Shown: piece after piece, positions 13,171 through 61,606 of the stretch
How the letters are laid out: every line of letters starts with the position of its first letter
Position numbering within the stretch: position 1 is the stretch's first letter
From: Flaccisagitta enflata
Taxonomy: Eukaryota
Assembly (NCBI GenBank): GCA_965153355.1
Contig: OZ231126.1
Span: 21,204,001-21,268,000 of the forward strand
Direction of reading: 5' to 3'
DNA length: 64,000 nucleotides
Program-made: the position numbers and the translations under genes
The notes under the pieces: generated by a model
Seen by the model: only the letters and a program-made list of their open reading frames with translations
Told to the model about the DNA's origin: nothing
Database searches by the model: none

Positions 13171-13329
13171 AACAAGGCCGTATACACGAGCCGAAGTCGC
13201 GTGCGGGTGGGCAGGAGCGGCGAAAAAGCTAAAAAAGCTAAGTGTGACCGACCGACCGACCGACGGACGGACAGACGGACCGACAGACGGACAGAGTGGG
13301 TCATAGAGTCGCGTGCACGCGACTAAAAA
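13171..13329 (-). mobile_element. HINE/DINE-1-like element, family 1
   Basis: aacaaggccgtatacacg ... agagtcgcgtgcacgcgactaaaaa. Confidence 0.75.
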
Positions 13330-13384
13330 CTGTTTTGGTCCCTGGAGGGAAGATAACCTTAAAAATTGGAGGCGAGGCAGAGAG

Positions 13385-28321: not shown

Positions 28322-28522
28322 AAACAAGGCCGGATACACGGCTACCCCGGTCGCGTGCGGGTTGGCAGGGGCTGTAATTGAGGTCACCAGATCATTTGGG
28401 CGGGAGCAGTGAGGCCAAAAACCGCGAAACCCCCAAAAAAGTAAAGTGTGACGGATGGGCGGGCCGACGGACGGATGGACTGACAAAGCGGGTTGTAGAG
28501 TCGCGTAGCACGCGACTTAAAA
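28322..28522 (-). mobile_element. HINE family 1 copy (paralogs ~45644-45843, ~53801-54001)
   Basis: aacaaggccggatacacggctacccc ... agagtcgcgtagcacgcgact. Confidence 0.75.
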
Positions 28523-28744
28523 TTGTGTCCCTGAAATTAAGATCTAGACGGAGATACGAGATCTGCAATCATCAGTAAAACCTTTTTGTCAATATCAGCA
28601 ACCCAATAACCTTTGAATGTAAAGTTTCCTAATAAGATTAAGACTTCTAGAAAAAAAACTTACAGTGCTTTTTCCAGATGAGCAAAACAGAAAGAAGTCA
28701 AGAGAGATAGTGAGAAAGAAAGAGAGAAAGAAAAAAAAGAATGA

Positions 28745-30060: not shown

Positions 30061-30282
30061 GGGGGAGAGATCGATGATTCCGGCGCAGTTACGGGGAGAA
30101 ATTTTTTTTTTCAAGAGGTCATAAACGAAATAGATTAAGGAGGGGTAAGAAATTCATCGAGTATGTTCGAAAAAGTTGAAGAAAGATTTACACAACCCTT
30201 GAGAAGCGGGGGGGGGGGGGTACTGTTGGTCAGAGAATGATAATGAATGCTTTCAACGTGTGGAAGCAGAACATCTAAGAAA

Positions 30283-30437
30283 AACAAGGCCGGATACACG
30301 GCAATCCAGTCGCGGACGGTTGGGCAGGAGCAGTACCACAAAAACCGCTCGGAATTCAGAAATGTGACCGACGGACGGACGGACGGTCGGACCGACCGAC
30401 ACGGCAAGGTGTAGAGTCGCGTGTCCGCGACTAAAAA
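30283..30437 (-). mobile_element. HINE copy present only in copy A
   Basis: Empty paralogous site atctaagaaaaaaagtgaatac at ~47681 and ~55940; inserted into an A/T run with no distinct TSD. Confidence 0.85.
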
Positions 30438-31132
30438 GTGAATACACGCTCGTCCATATAAGATAAATAGACGAATGTAAAAATAAAAATAGCCCAATAA
30501 ACCAAACAATGCCCATGAGTGCAACAGTCGCATAATCCGTATGCTAAGCTTGTCAGCGTGATAAGTATGCTTGGCTTGACAGCTGCACACTTCAAACGAC
30601 TTGAATCGCGAGCTTGGCATTAACCAAATGATATTACAGACAGACGGATGGCCCGCCCGACGGACCAGGCGACCTAGTAACATGTCCATTCACGTACATG
30701 CAAACAAATAGAATGGAACAGCGTGGACAAAGAAAGGGAGCCAACAAAGACTTGAGGCGCAAAAAAGGAAAGGAGCCAAAAAAGCCTCTATGAGTAGAGG
30801 AGTGCAAAAAAAAGAGAAGGAGCCAAAAACTCTCTCTCTCCGATGCACACGTAAAAAGGTCGGTAAACGATTTGGAGGGAAAAAGAGGTGAAGAACTTTG
30901 ATGAAATGAATAGAAATGACTGGAAAAGAGGTGGGTAACAAAAGAGGTTAGGACTCTCTTTCTTTCTTTCTTTCTCTCTTTTTCTTTCTTTCTTTCTTTC
31001 TTTCTTTTTCCTTTGTTTCTTTGTTTCTTTGTTTCTTTCTTTCTTGTCTTTTTTCTTTTCTTTCTTTTTTCTCTTTCTTCTTTCTTCTTCTTCTTTCTTT
31101 CTTCTTTCTTTCTTTCTTTCTTTCTCTCTTCT

Positions 31133-31168
<36 letters not shown>

Positions 31169-31965
31169 AAAAGATGGGAAAGGAGGGAAAATTATTTGGA
31201 GATGGGAAAGGAGAAAAAAGAATGAGTACAACTTGGACGGGGTTGAAGGCAAGAAGAAGGCAAGGAGGACGAAGATCACAACGAGGACAACAACGAGGAC
31301 AACAACGAGGACGAGGACGACAGCGAGTTTGAGGAAGAGGGCGAAACCATTCGTATGCATGTTCATGTCTATGAAGTCCCGGGCACTGCCTTCCAAACGA
31401 GAAATGACTTTGAAAAAAAAATGGAGGCGAGAAAAAAACACGAAAAAAAAAATGGAGAGGAAATGAGAAATTTTGTAAGGTGAGTCTGGAAGCTGAAGGA
31501 AATAAAATCGGATAATTTTTTTTTGCTTTATTTCGGTTAAATTTTTGGATTATTATGCAATTCTCTGATTTTGATTTGGAGAAGAGAGACAGAATAGAAA
31601 AAAACCCAACGAAATATTACCTATGAAATCGTTATGATGACGTTGTATAAAGATAGTATTTCTTGATATTGATCTTGATATTGTAAGTTAAAAAGATAAA
31701 TGATATGAATAATATGACCGAGATAATTCCAAAGAAAATACAAGCTATAGAGGGGTAGTTTGAATGCAGTTGTTAACATGATGAAGAATTGGGAATGCAG
31801 AAGCCTATCTTATTTCCACTTGGCAAGAGAAATTCTCTTCTGGAGTCTTGAAAACAACAAAAATTCTGCGGATTGAAATCAATAAATTATGAATATTTAG
31901 CGGCTGTATCTTATCCAAAGAGAGAGAAAGAAAGAAAAGAAAAGAAGAGAGAGAGAGAGAGACAC

Positions 31966-32084
<119 letters not shown>

Positions 32085-32097
32085 AAGAAAAGAAGAG

Positions 32098-32200
<103 letters not shown>

Positions 32201-32383
32201 ATAGGCGGAAAAGAGGAAGAGGGAAAGAAGGATGAGAGAGGAAAGATGCGGAGACATTCTTCATGAATTTCCAGACGCGGTTGACACTTATTCGCGCGAG
32301 CGGCCAAACTGATGATACGATACCATTTCGAAAAACAAAAACATCACCAATTCAATGCCTCTCTCTCTCTCTCTCTCTCTCTT

Positions 32384-32903
32384 TTTTGGGCAGCGGCCCC
32401 AAAGGGGGCTGAGTCCAGTAGAACACAGGAGACTCTTGTTTGTTTGTCCGTTTGTCCATTTGTCCGTTCGTTTGTCCCCCCAAGGCCCTCTCAGGCCTAA
32501 AATTTGCCCTCTTAGACCTAAAATCTGCCTTCTCAGGCCTGAAATCTGTCCTCTCAGGCCTTAAATCTGCCCTCTCAGGCCTGAAATTTATCCGTACAGG
32601 CCTGAAACCTGTCCTCTCAGGCCTTGAGTTTGCCTTCTCAGCCCTTTTAGATTCAAGGCCTGAGAGGGCAGATTTCAGGCCTGAGAAGGCAGATTTTAGG
32701 CCTAAGAGGACAGATTTCAGGCCTGAGAGGGTCTGGGGGGTGTGTGGACGGATGGACAGACGGACAAACTAACGAAAGTCCCCTGTGTTCTACAGGACTT
32801 CGTCCCCTTCGAGGCCGCTGCCCTGCCTCGCATTCCGATTTACAACCATGCAAAGCAGGGCAACGGGTATCGCTGACCACGTACTGGCCTTGGGCGACCT
32901 GTT
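32384..32903 (+). mobile_element. Foldback HINE-like element with 21-bp repeats (paralog ~58437-60268 is interrupted by a 1.35-kb insertion)
   Basis: Same ends and internal repeats as 10899-11390. Confidence 0.75.
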
Positions 32904-33600
32904 TTCTTTTCTCTTCGGCTCCCTTATTCTGCTCTGTTTTCTCTCTTCTGCTGTCTCTGCTTTCTTCTTCTAAGTTCATTCTCAGGCTTTCTTTATTTGC
33001 TTGGTAGGTTTTTCCTCTGCAGCTCTGCCTCAAGGAAGATGCCAAATCTGTCGTTGATTAACGCGATTCCACTTGGATGAGAAATTCTTTGGGTTTTGGA
33101 AGAAACAAAGCCGAATACTCGGCTACCCCAGTCGCGCAGGGGCAGTAATGGAGAGGGTCACTCGGGCATTTGGGAGGGAGCGGTGAATTAAAAAAGCTCA
33201 TGTAAGGGTACCGTCCAACTAACCGACCGACCGATCGACCGACATAGCGGGAAGAGTCGCGTAGCACACAATGAAAAAACAGATGAAGGGGAAAACCGTA
33301 TTTTAATATAGCATGATATAGGTTTGTCCCTTTTTGATCGATAAATAGGCAACTTCAAAGTACGATATCAAAAACACGTGACCATTGACCAATCAGTTTT
33401 CCCATATCCCCCGCCAATAACAACTCATCCATTCCCACCCCCTTTTGCGCGACCATCTCTATGCTCTGCGTGACCGTCTGCCCCACGATCGAGTATTCCA
33501 TCGCGGTCTCTTTGATTTCCGTTGACCCTCCACAACCCCCATCAAAACCGCTAGCGTCCTGTATTGTCTCTTTCCACTCAATAATGGCAACCAATAAAAT

Positions 33601-33650
<50 letters not shown>

Positions 33651-33707
33651 CTAGACCACGACTGTCCGCCATCCTAAATATGGAAAGGAATCAGTGGGTA
33701 GAGAAAA

Positions 33708-34458
33708 AACAAGGCCGGATACACGGCAATCCAGTCGCGGACGGTTGGGCAGGAGCAGGAGGGTAAAAACCGCTCGGAATTCAAAAATGTTACGGACGGA
33801 CGGACGGACCGACGCACTATGTCCCCGAAGGGCGTCACCTCAAGACAAAAAAAATTATGCTGGCACTTTTGACCTAAATAAACGGCTGAAACTTATACAT
33901 TTGCTTACCCTGAGCAAGAAAACATATGGTTTTACCTGCGTCATAGCTAATCCAAAGCCTCCTTTTGCCCCTTGAAGTTAACTACTTCTCTCAAACTAAA
34001 ATGCGGCAAAAAATGTTTTTTCCATTTCATATGGTACTATTCTAGAAATGAAAAATGGAACTTATGATAAGAGGGAGGATGCCAAATCTTTAGTAAAGGT
34101 TCAGGATTGATTGAATACGCCATGTGTAAAATTTGGTAAGCCTGCTCCTAAATTTGTAGGACCTATTAAAAAAAACTCGCAAAATTCCAATCTCAGTTGA
34201 AAAAAATCTTCTCCATTCAGAGCCTCCAAAATGTTGAACCTTCTGAGTTCAAGACTAAAGAAATGTCCCTAGATGAATCATGACGCAGGTAAAACCCCAA
34301 ATAGGTGTGACTTCACATACTTAAGAACATTTTTATACCATAGCTGTCATCTCTAGGCACTGGTTTATATTTTTGTCCTGTTATGGTACACTCTCCGATC
34401 TACGTGCGACGGACCAACCGACACGGCAAGGTGTAGAGTCGCGTGTCCGCGACAAAAA
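33708..34458 (-). mobile_element. HINE copy (same subfamily as 30283-30437) interrupted by the 33815-34406 element; absent from the paralog at ~61100
   Basis: The two halves rejoin to match the intact 30283-30437 copy. Confidence 0.85.
33815..34406. mobile_element. Non-autonomous Transib/RAG-like DNA transposon with RSS-like termini
   Basis: CAC...GTG ends; 5-bp direct repeat CGACG at 33810-33814 and 34407-34411. Left end CACTATG-N23-ACAAAAAAA; right end (reverse complement) CACGTAG-N23-ACAAAAATA. No ORF inside. Confidence 0.7.
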
Positions 34459-34953
34459 CGAAAAAAAACGAACCCCCCATAAGAAAACAACAAACAAAAA
34501 CAAACACGGAAAAAGATACATTCAAATCATTCTCTCCTATGATTGGCTGAAGATGCACATTTATCAAACGTTAGCGAATCAATTATTCTTGGTTACATTA
34601 GTGACACGACAGTATATCATTTGTAGAAAAAAAAATCCCTCCCTCCTCCCTTGTTGCATTGCGTTTGCTGGTACGTTGCGTTTCTCATTTTCTTCCATTC
34701 TCCTTGACATCTTCTTCCCTATCAACTTGTCCTTTTTTTCCCTCTTTTTCTTCTTCTTTCTCATCCTATTTTCGGCTCCGGTCTCAGCCTTCGGCTCGCG
34801 AGTGAGATGCGAGTGTGAATTTGCGTCTCTGCCGAATTTATTCCCACCTAATGTAATTTGTCACGATATCGTTGTGAGTTATGAAAGAAAACGCGGCATA
34901 TAACGCAGAGGAAGAAAGAGAGAAAAGAATAGCGGCGGAGAGCATCTACAGCG

Positions 34954-35073
<120 letters not shown>

Positions 35074-36809
35074 GTAAGATAGAGAGAGGCAAAGGACAAG
35101 AAGTCAATAGAGGAACTGGAAAGAAAGAGATAGAGACGAAGATGTAGACACTCTGTGTCAGAAATTCTTAACGATACTGAAATGGAGGCAAAAGAAGGAG
35201 AAAGTGGAAAAGAAAGAAGAAAAGACAAGAAGAAAGATGGGCGAAGAGATAAGGACAGAGTCACCAAGAAAGACAGAGAAAGAAACAGAAGACGAGGAAA
35301 AAAGATGGGATGTGGAAAGTGATACGGCAAACTGGAGGCGTGCTAAATGGGCGAAGATGGAAACGAAGATAATCATTTAAGCGAACAAAAAAAAAAAAAA
35401 AAAACAAACAAAAAAACAAGGCCGACATAGCGGCTTCTAGAGTCGCGTGTCCGCGACTAAAAAACACGATGAACAGAAAAACATTCGAGCAAGTATTGCA
35501 CGTATAGATCGAGGGGAAAAAGAGCAATGTGCAATGTGGTGACATGATTCAATGACAATGACTGCGATGGGTGATAAAGGAGAAACAAGTGGCAATATCT
35601 GGATGGAGAATGGTATCGAGAAACGGGGAGAGCTTGTAACACTCTTCGATATTAAAAACCTTTTGACATTTTTTTGTCTCGCATAAAATAATCATGCTAC
35701 GTCGGTGAATGTCACAGTCCAATTTCTGAAAAGACAATTCCTTCCCGCTACCTAAACAACTACGAATTTATTTGGTATTAAGGGGGACTCGCGTTTACCA
35801 CGGAATCGATTTCGAAAAAATTTTTCTGTGATATTCCAGAAAAAAAGGAGAAAAGAAAAACGGAAAATCAAATGAATTTGACAAAATTGAGATAAAAAAA
35901 AAACCTGCAAAAAATAACTGTTTTACATGTTATGTAAGACAGCAAGCATAAAGTGAAAAAAATGAAGATGAGAAAATTAAAGACAAAAGAAACAAATTAG
36001 AGAGAAAATCAGAACGAGAAATATCGAATCATGAACCAGAAAAAAAAAAAAAAGAACAAAAAAAGAAAAAAAAAAAGAAAAAGGAAAGGGTTCAAAAGCT
36101 GCCGGAAGAAAAGAAATTCAACCATAAAGTTATGAGTCCTAAAAGTCCAATATCAAGCGCAGTAAATAACAAGATGGTCTTTCAAAGGGAACACGGCCTA
36201 AGTCATGAAAGGACACAGAGAGAAAAAAAAATGGAAAAAAGGGGCAAAGAAAGAGACAGATGAGGAGGGAAAAAAAGAAAAAAGGAATTGGGCAACACAA
36301 ATATTGCTTACTGAGAGCATTGCTTAATTGCTTTCTTATCTTTTCATCTCGTGCATTGCAATTTCAGACATGCGCCCCTTTCATGCCCCTCTCTTTCTTC
36401 TTTTTCAATACTTCTGTCTGTCTGCTTGTCTGTCTGTCTTTTTCTCCTCTCTCTCTCTCTCTCTCTCTCTCTAAGCAAACACCCACACAGCCATATCCTC
36501 CTTGTTGATATTCCCAAATGGTCCATGGCAGGAAATGGAAGGGTGCAGCTCATTCCACCTCGACTCGCCTTCTGAAAGCCAATTGCGCCCTGATGGTCCA
36601 TCACAGTCCAAACCCGAAATTGATGTCCGGCTCGCAGTCTTCTAACCCTTCGTCTGTACTCTCTCTCTCTCTTCGACGAATAACTGTCTATTCTGCTCCT
36701 CTATCTCCTTCTCTATCCTGTCCTTCTTTCCTTCTGTCTCTGTCACTAGTCACCACCCTGCCTTCTTGTGGTTCACTGGTCTGTCCGCTCCTGTTTCCCG
36801 TCATCTCTG

Positions 36810-43993: not shown

Positions 43994-44779
43994 CCTACTC
44001 AGTGTCTCACATTCTGAAGAGGCATTCCCAGCACGTCCTTTACCCTTGACCCTCTGGGCGTGCATGACAACTGCATTTTTCGTGTGCGCGTTTCAAACCC
44101 ACACAATTGCGAGTTGATGCTGATGTTGAACTTACCATCTTCATTCTCTGCATTTGCTAGGTTTTACATCTGCAATCACTTGAACAATAGTTAAAAAAGA
44201 GAAATGACCCTTCGATTCTTTGAACAACGCGAGTTCATTGTTAAAATGCCATCATCATTCTATTGACCCAAATCCGATATTCATGTTACTATTACTACCC
44301 TCAATCGCTTTTTAGATGCGTCCATCAAGAACTCATCGATATAAGAGGGTTTGTCCGTCCGTCCGTCTGTTGGTCCGTCCGTCCGTGCGTCCGTGCGTCC
44401 GTATGTCCGTCTGTTGCGCCTGTGCAAAAAACTCGTTTAACGGCTGTTTTTGGCCACGGTAAGATCCTATAACGAATCAAATGATAGACAATCATATTTT
44501 GAGAGCCTTCTCCACTACTTAGTCTTTGCATATGTTTATTTGTCCATCTGTCTCTCCATATGTGTCACATGCTCAATACATGCAGAGACACAGTCCGGAA
44601 GTATCGTTGCTCGGTCGGGCTTGTTTTTCTATCAGTCATGACGTCGGCGATATTGCTCATTTTGTCTGACTTTGTTTTGGTCTCTGCCTGTCTTTCTGTC
44701 TGTCTGTCTGTCTGTCTGTCGGTCTGTCTGTGTCTGTCTTTCTATTTGTCTGTCTGTCTTTATCTTTTGGTTCGTCTGT

Positions 44780-44902
<123 letters not shown>

Positions 44903-46057
44903 AACGTCGACCTTTGGGGGTTCAGAGGTCTTTCTGGTTCCATTTCTTGGCGATCTCAAGCTGAGGAAAATGGTTGATTGCGGTCTTAGGATTGACTCCC
45001 GAAAAAACTTCCCCATGACCCAAAATGGATCATGAGAAAAAAAAATGGGGGAACGAGAGGAAAAAAGATATAAGGGTAAAAAGCAACAAGGCCGGATACA
45101 TGGCTACCCCAATAGCGTGCGGGCGGGCGGGGGCAGTGATATTGGGCAACGAAAGGTGCCTGATGAAATACGCCGAATGTACCGGCAGTGGGCACGCTTT
45201 CTAATCAACAGCAGGTGAAGCCAAACTAATGCACTGTAACAAAAAAAAACGTGGATAACTAAACGTGGATAACTAAGGCATCAGTCCGGCCTGTATGAAG
45301 GAGAAGGGAGCGTCGAGCGAGGGGCCTTCGACATCATACTTGATGGTTCCTAACACTGTTAGTAACAGTTGCGTCGGCAAATGCATGACATGACATGATT
45401 TTAACCTGATTCAAATGAAAAGATCAATGATAATTGTTTCGTGATCCATAATTTGTAGCTAAAAAAATGATCTTACTTTGTTGCATCATCGTCTTACTCT
45501 TTCATATCATACATGCGTTTCGTAAAGTAACTCTCTGGTAAAGAAAGGCAGAAAAAAAAAGGAAGATGAAAAAAAAGAAAGAAACCATCTGGACAGAAAC
45601 ACTATGTCTGAGTTAATTTGAATGTTTACATTTCTCATTTTCAAACAAGGCCGGATACACGGCTACCCCATTCGCTTGCGGGTGGGCAGGGGCTGTAATT
45701 GAGGTCACCAGATCATTTGGGCAGGAGCAGTGGGGCCAAAAACCACAAAAACCCCAAAAAAGTAAAGTGTGACGGATGGGCGGGCCGACCGACGGACGGA
45801 CCGACACAGCGGGTTGTAGAGTCGCGTAGCACGCGACTTCAAATTGTGTCCCTGAAATAAAGATCTAGGCGGAGATACGAGATCTGCAATCATCAGTAAA
45901 ACCTTTTTGTCAATATCAGCAAGCCAATAACCTTTGAATGTAAAGTTTCCTAATAAGATTAAGACTTCTAGAAAAAACGTACAGTGCTTTTTCCAGATGA
46001 GCAAAACAGAAAGAAGTCAAGAGAGATAGTGAGAAAGAAAGAAAAAAGAAAGAATGA

Positions 46058-46105
<48 letters not shown>

Positions 46106-46298
46106 GAACAGAAATAAAGAAAAAGAAAGATAGAAAGAAAGCTCCGAGTTCTTCTCGTTCTCGCCTTCTCCATCATTATCAACGATTTGTATTCAAGGAT
46201 TTCTCGACCCTCCTTTCTTTTCCATAGCTTCTTCATTCTATCATGGTTCCAAATATCGTCCACATCGTCGTCCTCCGCGTCAAATATTCGACTTTGAA

Positions 46299-46413
<115 letters not shown>

Positions 46414-46440
46414 TTGTTGTCGTTGTTTTTTTGGTGCTGC

Positions 46441-46512
<72 letters not shown>

Positions 46513-46558
46513 GGATGTGGTTGTTGTTTTGGTTGTGGTTGTGGTTGTGGTTGTGGTT

Positions 46559-46657
<99 letters not shown>

Positions 46658-48286
46658 ATTATGGTTATTGTTGTCCAAACAAATATTCTTTTAAACAACC
46701 TTCTCAAGCGGTCTACAGTGATTTGGGTTCCCTTTTTTTCCTACTCGTTTTGGGTGAGTTTGTGAGTGACTTTGATGGCTCACTAAGCAAATCTGACTGT
46801 CTGGTGATCATAAAGCAAATGTGGGCCTCATAAAAACTCCCTCTGACGACTTCATAAATGACAAAAGAGGAAAAAAAGAGAAGAAAAGATGGCTGGTCAA
46901 GAAGGAAGGGAAAGGGAAAAAATTGACCACGTCGGGGTGGGGGTGAAGGAAGGGAGATAAAGAAAGAAAGGGGAGGGGAAGAACTGACTATGTCAGGGTG
47001 GGAATGAAGGAAGGAAGATAAAGGAAGAAATGAAACGATGGCTGGTTAAAAAGGAAGGGAAGGGGAAAAATTGACCACGTTGAGTTGGGGATGAAAAAGG
47101 GAGATACAGGAAGAGATGAAAAGATGGATGGTCAGGCAAGAAGGGGAGGAAGGAAGGGGAAAAATTGACCACGTCGGGGTGGGGGTAAAGGAAGTGAGAT
47201 AGCTGAAGAGGAGAAAGATGGCTAGTCAAGAAGGAAGGGAAGGAAGGAAGGGGAAAAATTGACCACGTCATGGTAGGGGTAAAGGAAGTGAGATAGCGGA
47301 AGAAGAGAAAGATGGCTAGTCAAGAAGGAAGGGAAGGAAGGAAGGGGAAAAATTGACCACGTCATGGTGGGGGTAAAGGAAGTGAGATAGCGGAAGAAGA
47401 GAAAGATAGCTAGTCAAGAAGGAAGGGAAGGGGAAAGATTGACTATGTCGGGATGGGGAAAAAGGAGGGGGAGAGATCGATGATATCGGCGCAGTTGCGG
47501 GGAGAAATTTTTTTCTTTCAAGAGGTCATAAACGAAATAGTTTAAGGAGGGGTAAGAAATTCATCGAGTATGTTCGAAAAAGTTGAAGAAAGATTTACAC
47601 AACCTTTGAGAAGCGGGGAGGGGGGGGGTACTGTTGGTCAAAGGATGATAATGAATGCTTTCAACGTGTGGAAGCAGAACATCTAAGAAAAAAAGTGAAT
47701 ACACGCTTGTCCATATAACATAAATGGACGAATGTAAAAATAAAAAAAGCCCAATAAACCAAACAATGCCCATAAGCGCAACAGTCGCATAATCCGTATG
47801 ATAAGCTTGACAGCGTGATAAGTATGCTTGGCTTGACAGCTGCACACTTCAAACGACTTGAATTGCGTGCTAGACATTAAACTATCGATGTTAAAGACAG
47901 AGGGATGGCCCGCCTGACGGACCAGGCGACCTAGTAACATGCTCATTCACGTACACGCAAACAAATAGAATGGAACAGCGTGGACAAAGAAAGGGAGCCA
48001 ACAAAGACTTGAGGCGCAAAAAAGTAAAGGAGCCAAAAAAGTCTCTAAGAGTAGAGGAGTGCAAAAAAAGAGATGGAGCCAAAAACTCTCTCTCTCTCCG
48101 ATGCACACGTAAAAAGGTCGGTAAACGATTTGGAGGGAAAAAGAGGTGAAGAACTTTGATGAAATGAATAGAAATGACTGGAAAAGAGGTGGGTAACAAA
48201 AGAGGTTAGAACTCTCTTTCTTTCTTTCTCTCTTTCTTTCTTTCTTTCTTTTTTCTTTCTTTCTTTCTCTCTTTCTTTCTGTTTTT

Positions 48287-48401
<115 letters not shown>

Positions 48402-48416
48402 CTTTCTTTCTTTCTT

Positions 48417-48525
<109 letters not shown>

Positions 48526-49088
48526 TTTATAAAAGATGGAAAAAGAGGGAAAATTATTTGGAGATGGGATAGGAGAGAAAAGAAAGAGTACAACTTGGAC
48601 AGGGTTGAAGGCAAGTAGTAGGCAAGGAGGACGAAGATCACAACGAGGACAACAACAAGGACAACAACGAGGACAACAACGAGGACGAGGACGTCACCGA
48701 GTTTGAGGAAGAGGGCGAAGCCATTGGTATGCATGTTCATGTCTATGAAGTCCCGGGCACTGCCTTCCAAACGAGAAATGACTTTGAAAAAAAAAATGGA
48801 GGCGAGAAAAAAAAAACACGAAAAAAAATGGAGAGGAAATGAGAAATTTTGTAAGGTGAGTCTGGAAGCTGAAGGAAATGAAATCGGATAATTTTTTCTT
48901 CTTTATTTCGGTTAGATTTTTGGATTATAATGCAATTCTCTGATTTTGACTTGGAGAAGAGAGACAGAGAAAAAAAAAAGAAAAAAAAAAAAAACCCGAA
49001 ATATTACCTGCGAAATCGTTATGATGACGTTGTATGATCTTTATATGAAGATAGTATTTTTTTTATATTGATCTTGATATTGTAAGTT

Positions 49089-49620
49089 AACAAGTCATCC
49101 AAGGATTGCATATGGTCAGCGGTACACGATGCCCTGCTTGGAGTGATCAACTGAAGAGATGGAGTGAGAGCAGGGCAGCGGCCCCAAAGGGCCAATGTCC
49201 TGTAGGACACAGGGGTGAATTTCCTTACGTCCTGAGAAGGCATATTTCAGGCCTTAAAGGTAATTTTCAATGATATTTAATGGGAGCTATGTATTTTCTA
49301 CAATTTATTGTCAATTTTCTATGTTATTCAATGGGAATTTCATTTTTTTGTCAATTTTCTATGTTATTCGATGAAAAATGTGCATTTTTCTATTGTTTGT
49401 AAATTTTCCATGTTATTCAATGGGAAGTTTGCAAGTTGTAATGGGAAGTTTGCATTTTGTTATTTTCCCATGTTATTCAATAGAAATTTGAGAATTGAGA
49501 AGGTTCAGGGGGGACGGATGGACGGACGAACGGACGTACAGACGGATGGATGGACGGACATAAGGAAATTCACCCCTGTGTCCTACAGGACTTCGGCCCT
49601 TTGGGGCCGCTGCCCAAAAA
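49089..49620 (-). mobile_element. Foldback HINE-like element with a different AT-rich internal repeat; in B and C (57264-57796), absent from A
   Basis: gggcagcggccccaaagggcc / ggccctttggggccgctgccc inverted repeats; empty site gtaagttaaaaagataaatg at ~31683. Confidence 0.8.
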
Positions 49621-49848
49621 GGTAAATGATATGATTGATATGACTGAGAATTCCAAAGAAAATACAAGCTATAGAGGGGTAGTTTGAATGCAATTGTTAA
49701 CATCATGAAGAATTGGGAATGCAGAAGCCTATCTTATTTTCACTTGGCAAGAGAAATTCTTTTCTGGAGTCTTGAAAACAACAACAATTCTGTGGATTGA
49801 AATCGATGAATTATGAATATTTAGCGGCTCTTTGTTATCCAAAGAGAG

Positions 49849-50037
<189 letters not shown>

Positions 50038-50311
50038 AGGCGGAAAAGAGGAAGAGGGAAAGAAGGATAAGAGAGGAAAGATGCGGAGACATTCTTCATG
50101 AATTTCCAGACGGGGTTGACACTTATTCGCGCGAGCGGCCAAACTGATGATACGATACCATTTCGAAAAACAAAAACATCACCAATTCAATGCCTCTCTC
50201 TCTCTCTTCTTCTTCTTCTTCTCTTTTGGGCAGCGGCCCCGAAGGGGACAAAGTCCTGTAGCACACAAGGGACTTTCGTTTGTTTGTACGTTTGTCTGTT
50301 TGTTCGAGATA

Positions 50312-51658
50312 TTCCGTGGCGTTCCTTTATAACGTATTAAACCGTCAAAAATCGTTTCAAAAATGAAAAAAAGTGGATTATTGTAACAAAAATTATGAAT
50401 TTTTGTCACAAAAATGCTTAAAAAAGCCGTTTTGAAACGGGCGTTCTTATGCAGTTTTAAAACGATCTTATATTGTCGTTTCAAAACCACAAGTATGCGC
50501 AACTTTTGAAACTAATTTTGAAGCATAGTTGCCGTTTCAGAACTTGCAATTCTAAAGTTTTAAAACCATGAAATTTTTGCGTTTCAAAACGCTTGAAAAC
50601 AGCGCTAAAGTTACAGTCAGCAAGGGAGAAAATCTATATATCTTTGTATTCTTATCACCATTTTTACCGTTTTGAAAACGCAAAAAATTGAAGTATTGAA
50701 ACTAAGAAAAAATGCGTTTAAAGATTTAAACATGGTTATATGCTAGGTGGAACAATTTCCCTAACTTTACCCAAACTGAAATAAATGGAAGAGGGCCCCG
50801 TTAGCCCTCACTGACTGGCTAATATGCGCGCCACTCTTGGTTTTCCATAAAACGGAATCTGAAAGACATCCTTTTGGACAGCGGCCCCAAAGGTTGATGA
50901 CCTATGCTTTCATACATATGGGGAATTTTCTCCTCCTCCTTCTTCTCCTTCGTATCCCCCTTCCCCCAACCTCAAGGCCCATATCCCAGCCTTGAGGCTT
51001 TTATCCCAGCCTCGAGGCCCAAATCCCAGACGTGAGGCCCAAATTCGATGGACGGACAAAGCAGGGTGTAGAGTTGTGTAGCACGCGACTAAAAATGGGG
51101 TGAAACACTATGTGTTGCCATCAAATGCTTGCCGTCCTATTGTTGTTGAATTGTGACTCCATGTCACTTGTATTTTATGTAAATTTGCTAATGTGTAATG
51201 TTTTACTACTTTGAAGGACGTTACAAAAAGCTTATTTTTTACAGTTTTGAAACTGCAAAAAATTGAAGTTTTGAAACTGCAAAAAATTGAATTTATGAAA
51301 CGTTTTTACAAGCAACTTTTTGACAGTTTCAAAACTGCAAAAAAATTGCTTATGGGTACGGCGATTTCATATTTCATAATTTCACTGACACTGCCACTGC
51401 CACTGCCACTGGCTAGAGGTGAGAAAGAAATGTTATTTCAGTCATGTTTTCAAAAGCCCTTTTTATGCAGTTTTGATACTCCCCAAAAACGCGGTTTCAA
51501 AAGGCAGCACTATGCCTGCGTTTTGAAACCTAGATAACCTCAAAGGACGTTGTTGTATGCATAAATGATTTTGGACGTTTTGAAACTGCTGCATACTAGG
51601 AGTTTTGATACGTCGTTCCCCTATTTGGGACGATAATGCCATAATAACGCCAACGGAA
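50312..51658. mobile_element. ~1.35-kb TA-flanked TIR element rich in gttttgaaac/gtttcaaaac sub-repeats, nested in the 21-bp-repeat element (copy in C 58525-59879)
   Basis: TA|TTCCGTGGCGTT ... AACGCCAACGGAA|TA; absent from copy A; contains HINE fragments at ~50870-51095. Confidence 0.7.
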
Positions 51659-52200
51659 TAACTGGTTTGTTCTTCCCCCCAGCCCTCTCAGGCCCAAAAT
51701 CTGCCCTCTTAGGCCTAAAATCTGCCTTCTTAGGGCCTGAAATCTGCCCTTTCAGGCCTTGAATCTACCCTCTCAGGCCTAAAATTTATCCTGAAACTTG
51801 TAATCTCAAGCCTTGAATTTGCCTTCTCAGCCCTTTTAGGGTCTGTTGGTCTCTCGCTGAAGTATTTCAAAGAAAAGTTGCCTCGGCATCGGCAGGGGGA
51901 GGGATGCACAAGGGCCAAAATTGGTCAAATTCATCTGTACTGAATACAGAGACAGAATAACAACACTACAGACAGACGGAAACAAATACTGCAACAGAGA
52001 AATTTCAAGACTACTCTCTTTGTTTTATAGGTCAAACAAGTCATGATATTCTCGAAAATGTTTCTTATAAAACTTGGAAAGAAGTTTGACTGGATTTGAA
52101 ATGAAAACCTGTTTGTTTAAAACAAAACTATCGCATTGAATGCATAAAGTTTGGTAACAGGAATAAGAAATTGTTATCTAACTTTTTATACGTCGTTGCA

Positions 52201-60060
<7,860 letters not shown>

Positions 60061-60976
60061 ATTCAAGGCCTGAGAGGACAGATTTCAGGCCTGAGAGGGT
60101 CTGGGGGGCGGACGGATGGACAGACGGACCAACAAACGAAAGTCCCCTGTGTTCTACAGGACTTTGTCCCCTTCGAGGCTACTGCCCTGCCTCTCATTCC
60201 GACTTACAACCATGCAAAGCAGGGCAACGGGTATCGCTGACCAAGTATTACCCTTGGGCGACCTGTTTTCTTTTCTCTTCGGCTCCCTTATTCTGCTCTG
60301 TTTTCTCTCTTCTGCTGTCTCTGCTTTCTTCTTCTATGTTCATTCTCAGGCTTTCTTTATTTGCTTGGTAGATTTTTCCTCCGCAGCTCTGCCTCAAGGA
60401 AGATGCCAAATCTGTCGTTGATTAACGCACTTCCACTTGGATGAGAAATTCTTTGGGTTTTGGGAGAAACAAAGCCGGATACTCGGCTACCCCAGTCGCG
60501 CAGGGGCAGTGATGGAGAGGGTCACTCGGGCATTTGGGAAGGAGCAGTGAATTAAAAAAGCTCATGTATGGGGACCGTCCAACCAACCGACCGAGCGATC
60601 GACCGACATAGCGGGGTGAAGAGTCGCGTAGCCCATAAAGAAAAAAACAGATGAAGGGGAAAACTGTATTTGAATTCAAGGACAATATATAATGATATAG
60701 GTTTGTTCCTTTTCTATCGAAAAGTAGGCAACTTCAAAGTACGGTATCAAAACACGTGACCATTGACTAATCAGTTTTCCCATATCACCCGCCAATAACA
60801 ACTCATCCATTCCCACCCCCTTTTGCGCGACCATCTCTATGCTCTGCGTGACCGTCTGCCCCACGATCGAGTATTCCATCGCGGTCTCTTTGATTTCCGT
60901 TGACCCTCCACAACCCCCATCAAACCCGCCAAGCGTTCTGTATTGTCTCTTTCCACTCAATAATGGCAACCAATAA

Positions 60977-61033
<57 letters not shown>

Positions 61034-61606
61034 TCTCTTTATCCACTAGACCAAGACTGTCCGCCATGCTAAATATGGAAAGGAATCAGTGGGTAGAGAA
61101 AAAAAAAACACGAAAAAAAACAAACCCCCCATAAACAAAAAACAACAAACAAAAACAAACACGGAAAAAGATATATTCAAATTACTCTCTCCTATAATTG
61201 GCTGAAGGTGTACATCTATCAAACGTAAGCCAATTGATCATTCTTGGTTACATTAGTGTCACGACAGTATATCATTTGTAGAAAAAAATCCCTCCCTCCT
61301 CCCTTGTTGCATTGCGTTTGCTGGTACGTTGCGTTTCTCATTTTCTTCCATTCTCCTTAACATCTTCTTCCCTATCAGCTTGTTCTTTTTTTTCCCTCTT
61401 TTTCTTCTTCTTTCTCATCCTATTTTCGGCTCCGGTCTCAGTCTTCGGCTTGCGAGTGAGATGCGAGTGTGAATTTGCGTCTCTGCCGAATTTATTCCCA
61501 CCTAATGTAATTTGTCACGATATCGTTGTGAGTTATGAAAGAAAACGCGGCATAAAACGCAGAGGAAGAAAGAAAGAAAAGAAAAACGGCGGAGAGCATC
61601 TACAAC

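What the first reader, a model, noticed from the sequence alone, without database searches (positions are those of the whole stretch)
33810..34411. Transib/RAG-like mini-transposon whose two ends both mimic a V(D)J 23-RSS
Seen: a 592-bp insert splits a HINE, whose halves rejoin to match the intact copy at 30283-30437. It starts with CAC, ends with GTG and is flanked by CGACG on both sides. Left end: CACTATG (33815-33821) + 23 nt + ACAAAAAAA (33845-33853). Right end, reverse complement: CACGTAG (34406-34400) + 23 nt + ACAAAAATA (34376-34368). The two spacers are largely dissimilar in sequence but identical in length. Established: the RSS is CACAGTG-12/23-ACAAAAACC; Transib and ProtoRAG transposons have CAC termini and 5-bp TSDs and are the accepted source of RAG1/RSS. 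Inference: a non-autonomous member of a Transib/RAG-like family recognised by heptamer-spacer-nonamer geometry (23/23) rather than by continuous TIR identity, implying a cognate transposase elsewhere in this genome. It inserted after the A duplication, since it is missing at ~61100. Caveats: the TSD lies in a (GGAC/CGAC)n tract, and A-rich nonamers arise easily by chance.
Basis: partly seen in the sequence, partly recalled or inferred. Interest (0 to 1): 0.8.

Follow-up and report, generated by a model that had tools for sequence, protein, structure and literature searches.

The report
Small Transib-type transposon inside a repeat
A 592-base non-coding mobile element of the Transib/RAG-like kind sits inside another repeat; it is real, but its RSS-like ends are what the literature already describes for Transib transposons, so it is an ordinary new member of a known kind.

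Summary
A 592-bp insert (33815-34406) splits a short, very abundant repeat ("HINE"). It starts CAC, ends GTG and is flanked by CGACG on both sides. Each end carries ACAAAAA exactly 23 nt after a CAC heptamer. Removing the insert plus exactly 5 nt rejoins the HINE without a gap against the intact copy at 30280-30440. The target is 71% GC in a 41% GC window. The two ends share only three islands: CAC, GACAAAAA and a 17-nt subterminal inverted block. There is no coding capacity.

Contigs of public runs show the unit is highly repeated, at about 10^3 times the depth of the unique flanks. Two contigs lose similarity within 1-2 nt of the proposed ends.

This is best read as a non-autonomous Transib-superfamily transposon. 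The "23/23 heptamer-spacer-nonamer" plan is not new: Kapitonov and Jurka 2005 give it as the consensus Transib end.

Not shown: the 5-bp duplications of other copies and the cognate transposase. No genome is held, and collection scans found no further copies.

Novelty: new member of a known kind. Interest about 0.3.

The parts
33706..33814 (+). Left part of the host repeat (HINE), ending in an (NGAC)n tract
   Evidence: 90% match to the intact copy 30270-30450; alignment of 7 HINE copies
33810..33814 (.). Left copy of the 5-bp target-site duplication CGACG
   Evidence: Sequence. Removing exactly 5 nt restores a gap-free HINE
33815..34406 (+). 592-bp non-autonomous Transib-type element
   Evidence: Insert in the HINE. 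Single copy in the window. No ORF over 55 aa lies wholly inside it. Summed contig depth is about 10^3 times that of the unique flanks
33815..33821 (+). Left heptamer CACTATG
   Evidence: Identical to ProtoRAG TR1 as quoted in PMC8289069; 6/7 to the Transib consensus CACAATG quoted in PMC1131882
33845..33853 (+). Left nonamer ACAAAAAAA, 23 nt after the heptamer
   Evidence: 7/9 to ACAAAAACC
33928..33944 (+). Left arm of the 17-nt perfect subterminal inverted repeat GGTTTTACCTGCGTCAT, 113 nt from the left end
34280..34296 (-). Right arm of the 17-nt inverted repeat, 110 nt from the right end. Most family copies read C at 34290, which makes it 16/17
   Evidence: (table 3)
34368..34376 (-). Right nonamer ACAAAAATA (read on the minus strand), 23 nt after the heptamer
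34400..34406 (-). Right heptamer CACGTAG (read on the minus strand)
34407..34411 (.). Right copy of the 5-bp target-site duplication CGACG
34407..34458 (+). Right part of the host HINE
   Evidence: 96% match to the intact copy
30283..30437 (+). Closest intact HINE copy, used as the empty-site reference
61093..61112 (+). Paralogous site of the older segmental duplication that lacks the HINE and its insert
   Evidence: 33640-33709 and 34458-34600 are colinear with 61035-61104 and 61110-61255; sequence

Best explanation
The 592-bp insert is a non-autonomous (MITE-like) cut-and-paste DNA transposon of the Transib superfamily, the group to which RAG1 and the RAG-like transposons belong.

Inferred mechanism: a Transib/RAG1-like DDE transposase, encoded elsewhere in the genome, binds each end through the CAC heptamer and the A-rich nonamer 23 nt further in. 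It excises the element at the CAC borders and inserts it into a GC-rich site with 5-bp staggered strand transfer. Repair of that stagger gave the CGACG duplication.

Here the element landed in the (NGAC)n tract of a HINE repeat. That HINE had itself inserted after an older segmental duplication.

Shown: the insertion, its exact borders on this copy, the 5-nt duplication, the bipartite end similarity, the lack of coding capacity and the high repetition of the unit. Inferred: the enzyme, the chemistry and the role of the nonamer.
For: 1. Borders and duplication. CGACG|CAC...GTG|CGACG. Only removal of the insert plus 5 nt gives a gap-free rejoined HINE (0 gap columns in 160; 1-5 gap columns for 0-4 or 6-9 nt). 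A chance repeat in a period-4 tract would be 4 or 8 nt long, not 5.

2. Ends. Both ends fit CAC-N27-ACAAAAA. The window holds 4 such sites against 0.36 expected, and 0 of 100 shuffles reach 4. End-to-end identity is heptamer 4/7, spacer 9/23, nonamer 8/9 and the next 21 nt 3/21. Positions 1-39 beat 500 of 500 shuffles. The spacer alone does not (69 of 500 reach it), and positions 40-113 do not (310 of 500).

3. Target. The 35-bp target is 71% GC in a window of about 41% GC. The duplication is near-palindromic (CGNCG), like the CASTG, CAWTG and CARTG motifs reported for Transib families (PMC1131882; bioRxiv 10.64898/2026.08.26.747230).

4. Published definition. Transib is described as the only superfamily with 5-bp duplications, with GC-rich targets and an end made of CACAATG, a ~23-nt variable spacer and AAAAAAATC, mostly RSS23-like on both sides (PMC1131882, passages).

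5. Family. In the organism's own run X1 the summed contig depth is about 79 over the unique flank and 70,000-135,000 over the element. An X7 contig matches from 33813 with 28 unlike letters before it. An X2 contig matches 34071-34407 at 96% and then runs on for 137 unlike letters.

6. No ORF over 55 aa lies wholly inside the element.
Against: Only one full copy could be read. The 5-bp duplications of other copies, which are the defining test, were not seen.

The same empty site also fits a 593-bp element (GCAC...GTG or CAC...GTGC) with a 4-bp duplication, although its ends would then be asymmetric.

The right heptamer CACGTAG matches the Transib consensus CACAATG at only 4/7.

Two contigs (X1 record 2, X7 record 27) begin to match only at 33846/33847. 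Some relatives therefore do not share the terminal 31 nt at 80% likeness or more.

No transposase was found. The 35 longest of the 145 ORFs of at least 110 aa in the window gave no transposase or RAG1 family in Pfam. Pfam is a weak detector of Transib transposases (remark in the preprint read).

A-rich 9-mers are common here: ACAAAAA occurs 92 times in the window against 36.5 expected.
Confidence: 0.7

Rival explanations
1. It is a non-autonomous element of the related CMC (CACTA/Mirage/Chapaev) superfamily. The true duplication is then 4 bp (CGAC or GACG), and one more base belongs to the element.
For: The left end begins CACTA. Because the flanks read CGAC-G and the element is bounded by G...C, a 593-bp element with a 4-bp duplication gives the same empty site as the 5-bp reading (sequence; reasoning). 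CMC and Transib transposases are placed close together in a tree described in bioRxiv 10.64898/2026.08.26.747230 (figure legend seen).
Against: This reading needs asymmetric termini (GCAC...GTG) and a 1-in-4 coincidence at the border. With the symmetric CAC...GTG borders, 4 nt leaves one gap column and 5 nt leaves none. The right end reads CACGTA, not CACTA. The A-rich block at an RSS23-like distance on both ends is the published Transib pattern.
Confidence: 0.1
2. It belongs to a RAG-like (RAG1L/RAG2L, ProtoRAG-type) transposon family rather than to Transib proper. It is mobilised by a two-protein RAG-like transposase.
For: The left heptamer CACTATG is identical to the ProtoRAG TR1 heptamer. 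ProtoRAG also makes 5-bp GC-rich duplications (PMC8289069, passages). RAGL-A ends carry an AT-rich nonamer-like block (PMC10629977, passages).
Against: The ends share no TR2-like block next to the heptamer (3/10 identities at positions 8-17). The ProtoRAG TR5 sequence GCCATCTTG is not in the 60 nt at either end printed, and the spacers are 23/23, not 27/31 as in ProtoRAG. RAGL-A ends are asymmetric by 10 bp; these are symmetric.
Confidence: 0.1
3. It is not a cut-and-paste transposon. It is a fragment of some other repeat (a solo LTR, a SINE or filler DNA captured during break repair) whose RSS-like ends are coincidental.
For: Only one full copy was read. The site lies in a repetitive tract, and A-rich 9-mers are frequent. 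Some related contigs share only the interior of the unit (records 2 and 27).
Against: The ends are CA...TG, not the TG...CA of an LTR. There is no A-tail or simple-repeat tail, and the duplication is a short one of exact length. Three inverted islands lie at matching distances from the two ends, including a 17-nt perfect one. Independent contigs lose similarity within 1-2 nt of both borders. The joint chance of CAC plus ACAAAAA at one fixed distance is about 1e-5 per end.
Confidence: 0.1

Closest known systems
Non-autonomous Transib families (TransibN1-N3_AG, TransibN1_DP, TransibN1_SP, Hopper/Kodama), named in PMC1131882 and bioRxiv 10.64898/2026.08.26.747230
   Same: A short non-coding unit with CAC...GTG ends, an A-rich block about 23 nt from the heptamer at both ends, a 5-bp GC-rich near-palindromic duplication, and many copies
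   Different: No sequence similarity was tested, because no Repbase copy was on hand. The nonamer here (ACAAAAA) is nearer the vertebrate RSS nonamer than the quoted Transib consensus AAAAAAATC and sits about one position further in. The two ends are alike only in islands. There is an extra 17-nt subterminal inverted block.
HzTransib (Helicoverpa zea), the biochemically and structurally studied Transib
   Same: Symmetric ends, CAC heptamer and 5-bp duplication (as summarised in PMC8289069 and PMC10629977)
   Different: PMC8289069 says Hztransib ends have little or no similarity to the RSS nonamer. This element has 7/9 matches at both ends.
ProtoRAG / RAGL-B transposons of lancelets
   Same: Heptamer CACTATG (left end identical) and 5-bp GC-rich duplications
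   Different: ProtoRAG has a conserved TR2 block, a non-A-rich TR5 (GCCATCTTG) and 27/31-bp spacers. None of these is seen here.
Vertebrate V(D)J 23-RSS
   Same: The CAC core of the heptamer, a 23-nt spacer, and an ACAAAAA nonamer core with the critical A positions
   Different: Here two 23-type signals flank one mobile unit as inverted ends with a target duplication. There is no 12-type partner and no antigen-receptor context.

Membership tests
Transib superfamily (non-autonomous member) | 5-bp target-site duplication | tested here: met
   CGACG on both sides. Only removal of 5 nt gives a gap-free rejoined HINE. This rests on a single copy, and a 4-bp reading with shifted, asymmetric borders gives the same empty site.
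Transib superfamily (non-autonomous member) | Termini 5'-CAC...GTG-3' with an RSS-like heptamer | tested here: met
   CACTATG and CACGTAG. CAC is exact at both ends. Matches to CACAATG are 6/7 and 4/7.
Transib superfamily (non-autonomous member) | Second conserved A-rich block (nonamer) about 22-23 nt after the heptamer | tested here: met
   ACAAAAAAA and ACAAAAATA at positions 31-39 of both ends. They are 8/9 identical to each other while the spacer is 9/23. 4 sites against 0.36 expected in the window.
Transib superfamily (non-autonomous member) | Preference for GC-rich targets | tested here: met
   The 35-bp target is 71% GC against about 41% for the window. One site only.
Transib superfamily (non-autonomous member) | Many copies with the same ends and differing flanks and duplications | tested here: inconclusive
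   Summed contig depth is about 10^3 times the unique flank. One contig starts to match at 33813 and one stops at 34407, both with unlike sequence beyond. Contig letters are not given, so no duplication could be read. Scans of metagenome, genome and viral collections gave no true copy.
Transib superfamily (non-autonomous member) | Autonomous partner encoding a Transib/RAG1-like DDE transposase with the same ends | not testable with these tools
   No genome is held. No transposase family was found among the 35 longest of the window's 145 ORFs of at least 110 aa.
RAG-like (ProtoRAG/RAGL) transposons | Conserved TR2 block beside the heptamer; a convergent RAG1L-RAG2L gene pair in autonomous copies | tested here: not met
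   Positions 8-17 of the two ends share 3/10 letters. TR5 GCCATCTTG is absent from the ends. The gene pair cannot be tested.
CMC / Chapaev | 2-4-bp target duplication and CACTA-type ends | tested here: inconclusive
   With symmetric borders the duplication is 5 nt. A 4-nt reading needs asymmetric borders. Only the left end reads CACTA.
Solo LTR | TG...CA termini | tested here: not met
   The ends are CA...TG on either strand.
SINE / retroposon | A-rich or simple-repeat 3' tail and a variable, longer duplication | tested here: not met
   No tail at either end. No Rfam match within 33815-34406 at E up to 1.

The most novel reading that the evidence does not exclude
The family is mobilised by a Transib/RAG1-like transposase that reads an RSS-type nonamer (ACAAAAA) at a fixed 23-nt distance on both ends. 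That would imply a RAG1-type nonamer-binding domain in a marine planktonic eukaryote outside the jawed vertebrates. The 17-nt subterminal inverted block about 110 nt inside each end would be a third, so far undescribed, protein-contact site. Such a natural 23/23 substrate with a near-canonical nonamer would let one test when nonamer reading and the 12/23 restriction arose.
Probability: 0.15. Interest if true: 0.55.

Novelty: new member of a known kind. Interest (0 to 1): 0.3.

Why it matters
Transib and RAG-like transposons are the accepted source of RAG1 and of the V(D)J recombination signals. Each new family with clear heptamer and nonamer blocks adds a data point on how end recognition evolved. 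This one has nonamers unusually close to the vertebrate consensus, and its ends are alike only in the blocks that RAG1 would contact. That makes it a possible natural substrate for testing nonamer reading by an invertebrate or protist enzyme. Taken alone it confirms the published architecture and does not change it. It also dates three events at this locus: segmental duplication, then HINE insertion, then Transib-type insertion.

Tried and rejected
- Whole-genome search: none is held for this window.
- Other copies in the window: none. The best extra hits are 17-23 nt.
- Other copies in public collections:
  - The right-end 20-mer found nothing in metagenome contigs or genome contigs.
  - The left-end 20-mer found nothing in genome contigs.
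  - An internal 20-mer gave one metagenome contig (L001) that shares only 21 nt, a chance hit.
  - The 17-mer gave nine viral contigs (L002-L010) that share only 18-23 nt, also chance hits.
  - A HINE 20-mer found nothing in viral contigs.
- Empty-allele search in laid contigs: the many joints across the insert (for example 33813 to 34413, skipping 599) come from other HINE copies with different tract lengths. They say nothing about this site (table 5).
- Earlier notes of this scan: nothing by place, sequence or words.
- Rfam over 30200-34600: only sub-threshold microRNA-like noise outside the element.
- Pfam on the 35 longest ORFs: only low-complexity, sub-threshold matches. The two longest ORFs are translated microsatellites.
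- Literature search for two HINE strings: 0 papers.
- A fourth CAC-N27-ACAAAAA site at 35671-35707 (minus strand) has no partner end with a matching 5-nt flank in the sequence read. I treat it as chance.
- A 12-type nonamer at either end: none seen in the end sequences printed.

Full report
**What is there**

Reading 33500-34800 confirms every coordinate of the finding. In order, the sequence is:
- CGACG at 33810-33814
- CACTATG at 33815-33821
- 23 nt of spacer
- ACAAAAAAA at 33845-33853
- the interior of the element
- TATTTTTGT at 34368-34376
- 23 nt of spacer
- CTACGTG at 34400-34406
- CGACG at 34407-34411

Its two parts, 33705-33817 and 34410-34458, match the intact copy at 30270-30450 at 90% and 96%. 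The unit occurs once in the window; no other hit exceeds 23 nt. No ORF longer than 55 aa lies wholly inside it. It has no Rfam match.

**Is the 5-nt duplication real?**

I rejoined the HINE in a script after removing the insert plus 0 to 9 further bases, and aligned each version to the closest intact copy, 30280-30440.
- Removing exactly 5 nt gives 160 columns, 0 gap columns and 14 mismatches.
- Removing 0-4 nt leaves 5, 4, 3, 2 and 1 gap columns.
- Removing 6-9 nt leaves 1-4 gap columns.

In a period-4 tract a chance flanking repeat would be 4 or 8 nt long, not 5, so the tract does not explain the repeat.

One ambiguity remains. The flanks read CGAC-G, so a 593-bp element (GCAC...GTG or CAC...GTGC) with a 4-nt duplication yields the same empty site. 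That reading needs asymmetric ends and a 1-in-4 coincidence.

**The ends**

I compared the two ends without gaps:

| Segment | Identities |
|---|---|
| Heptamer | 4/7 (CAC and the final G) |
| Spacer | 9/23 |
| Nonamer | 8/9 |
| Next 21 nt | 3/21 |

In shuffle tests, positions 1-39 beat all 500 shuffles. The spacer alone does not (69 of 500 reach it), and positions 40-113 do not (310 of 500).

The only other shared island is a perfect 17-nt inverted repeat, GGTTTTACCTGCGTCAT. It lies at 33928-33944 and 34280-34296, which is 113 and 110 nt from the respective ends.

The pattern CAC-N27-ACAAAAA has 4 matches in the window against 0.36 expected, and 0 of 100 shuffles reach 4. Two of the four matches are this element's ends. 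ACAAAAA itself is common, with 92 matches against 36.5 expected, so the A-rich motif alone proves little. The weight lies in the combination with CAC at the independently fixed borders. That combination has a chance of about 7e-5 per end and spacer length, using the frequencies.

**Target**

The 35-bp target is 71% GC in a window of about 41% GC. The duplication CGACG is near-palindromic.

**Is it a family?**

No genome is held. I therefore laid the contigs of two runs of the source organism (X1, X7) and two seawater metagenomes (X2, X5) on 33300-34900 at 80% likeness.

In X1 the summed contig depth is about 79 over the unique left flank, 70,000-135,000 over the element and 5-8 million over the HINE. 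The tool warns that this is no copy number. It does show that the unit is highly repeated, roughly a thousand-fold, and that the HINE is far more repeated still.

Evidence from individual contigs:
- An X7 contig (record 26) matches from 33813 to 33961, with 28 unlike letters before the match.
- An X2 contig (record 15) matches 34071-34407 at 96% and then runs on for 137 unlike letters.
- So independent copies lose similarity within 1-2 nt of both proposed borders, in flanks that are not this HINE.

Against a uniform family, two contigs (X1 record 2, X7 record 27) begin to match only at 33846/33847. Some relatives therefore do not share the terminal 31 nt.

Eighteen listed positions between 33894 and 34364 show the window copy differing from most copies. 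None of the listed differences lies in the terminal 79 nt on the left or 42 nt on the right. The list is truncated (122 rows not shown), so that absence is weak evidence.

Contig letters are not returned, so I could not read the duplications of other copies. Scans of the metagenome, genome and viral collections gave no true copy.

**Order of events**

The flanks 33640-33709 and 34458-34600 are colinear with 61035-61104 and 61110-61255. The longer duplicated stretch is 88% identical. The paralogue lacks the whole HINE together with its insert. The order is therefore segmental duplication, then HINE insertion into an A-run, then the 592-bp insertion into the HINE tract.

**Comparison with what is known**

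Kapitonov and Jurka 2005 (PMC1131882; passages read) state four things:
- Transib is the only eukaryotic DNA-transposon superfamily with 5-bp duplications.
- Its targets are GC-rich, and some families use palindromic 5-bp sites.
- The consensus end is a CACAATG heptamer, a variable ~23-bp spacer and an AAAAAAATC nonamer.
- Most families carry RSS23-like ends on both sides.

The ProtoRAG heptamer is CACTATG, identical to the left end here. ProtoRAG, however, has a conserved TR2 block, a non-A-rich TR5 (GCCATCTTG) and 27/31-bp spacers (PMC8289069, passages). RAGL-A ends are heptamer, TR2, an asymmetric spacer and an AT-rich nonamer (PMC10629977, passages). Neither pattern fits: the two ends share only 3/10 letters at positions 8-17 and are symmetric.

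Non-autonomous Transib derivatives are common (listing; bioRxiv 10.64898/2026.08.26.747230, passages). That preprint also reports Transib relatives with 3-bp or TA duplications, so duplication length alone is not fully diagnostic.

**Verdict**

The best reading, at confidence about 0.7, is a non-autonomous Transib-superfamily transposon mobilised in trans.

Two points are mildly unusual. The nonamers match the vertebrate RSS consensus at 7/9, whereas PMC8289069 says Hztransib ends have little or no nonamer similarity. There is also a third symmetric island, the 17-mer.

Neither the transposase nor per-copy duplications could be examined. The supplementary figures of PMC1131882 that list Transib ends and duplications are image or PDF files; I did not see them, and they could refine the comparison.

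Novelty: a new member of a known kind. Interest 0.3.

Noticed in passing
window 33706-33814 + 34407-34458; 30283-30437; also about 53801-54004, 45643-45846, 28322-28525, 13171-13332, 12201-11979 (minus strand): The host repeat (HINE) is extremely abundant. Its summed contig depth is 5-8 million against about 79 for unique sequence in the organism's own run, and it is also present in seawater metagenomes. Copies start AACAAGGCCGGATACACGG, carry a variable (NGAC)n tract and end GTCGCGT..GCGACTAAAAA. A longer subfamily has an extra block of about 46 nt. It has no Rfam match and no literature hit for two of its strings.
   Followed up: partly
window 32466-33712 vs 59886-61107: A segmental duplication at 88% identity over about 1.25 kb. 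It continues past the HINE site to at least 34600/61255.
   Followed up: partly
window about 44000-52000 vs 52000-60000: Repeat hits recur at an offset of about 8.2 kb: HINE copies at 45643/53801, 94-bp tandem arrays at 47051-47431 and 55310-55690, and matches at 50135/58348. This suggests a tandem segmental duplication of about 8.2 kb.
   Followed up: no
window, whole: Very high microsatellite load. There are 47 tandem-repeat rows scoring at least 200, mostly AG/TC, GT/CA, TGT and GAA arrays of 100-590 bp. The long ORFs are translated microsatellites, and no protein family was found among the 35 longest ORFs.
   Followed up: partly
window 35671-35707 (minus strand) and 34422-34458 (plus strand): These are the two other matches to CAC-N27-ACAAAAA. 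The second is the HINE tail abutting its A-rich target. The first has no recognisable partner end in the sequence read. All four matches read GACAAAAA.
   Followed up: partly
window 34630-34900: Seawater-metagenome contigs match the unique right flank with 1 difference in 271 nt (X2, record 16) and 1 in 168 nt (X5, record 24). The source organism or a very close relative is therefore present in seawater samples. In all, 24 runs of 13 studies hold part of the stretch.
   Followed up: no
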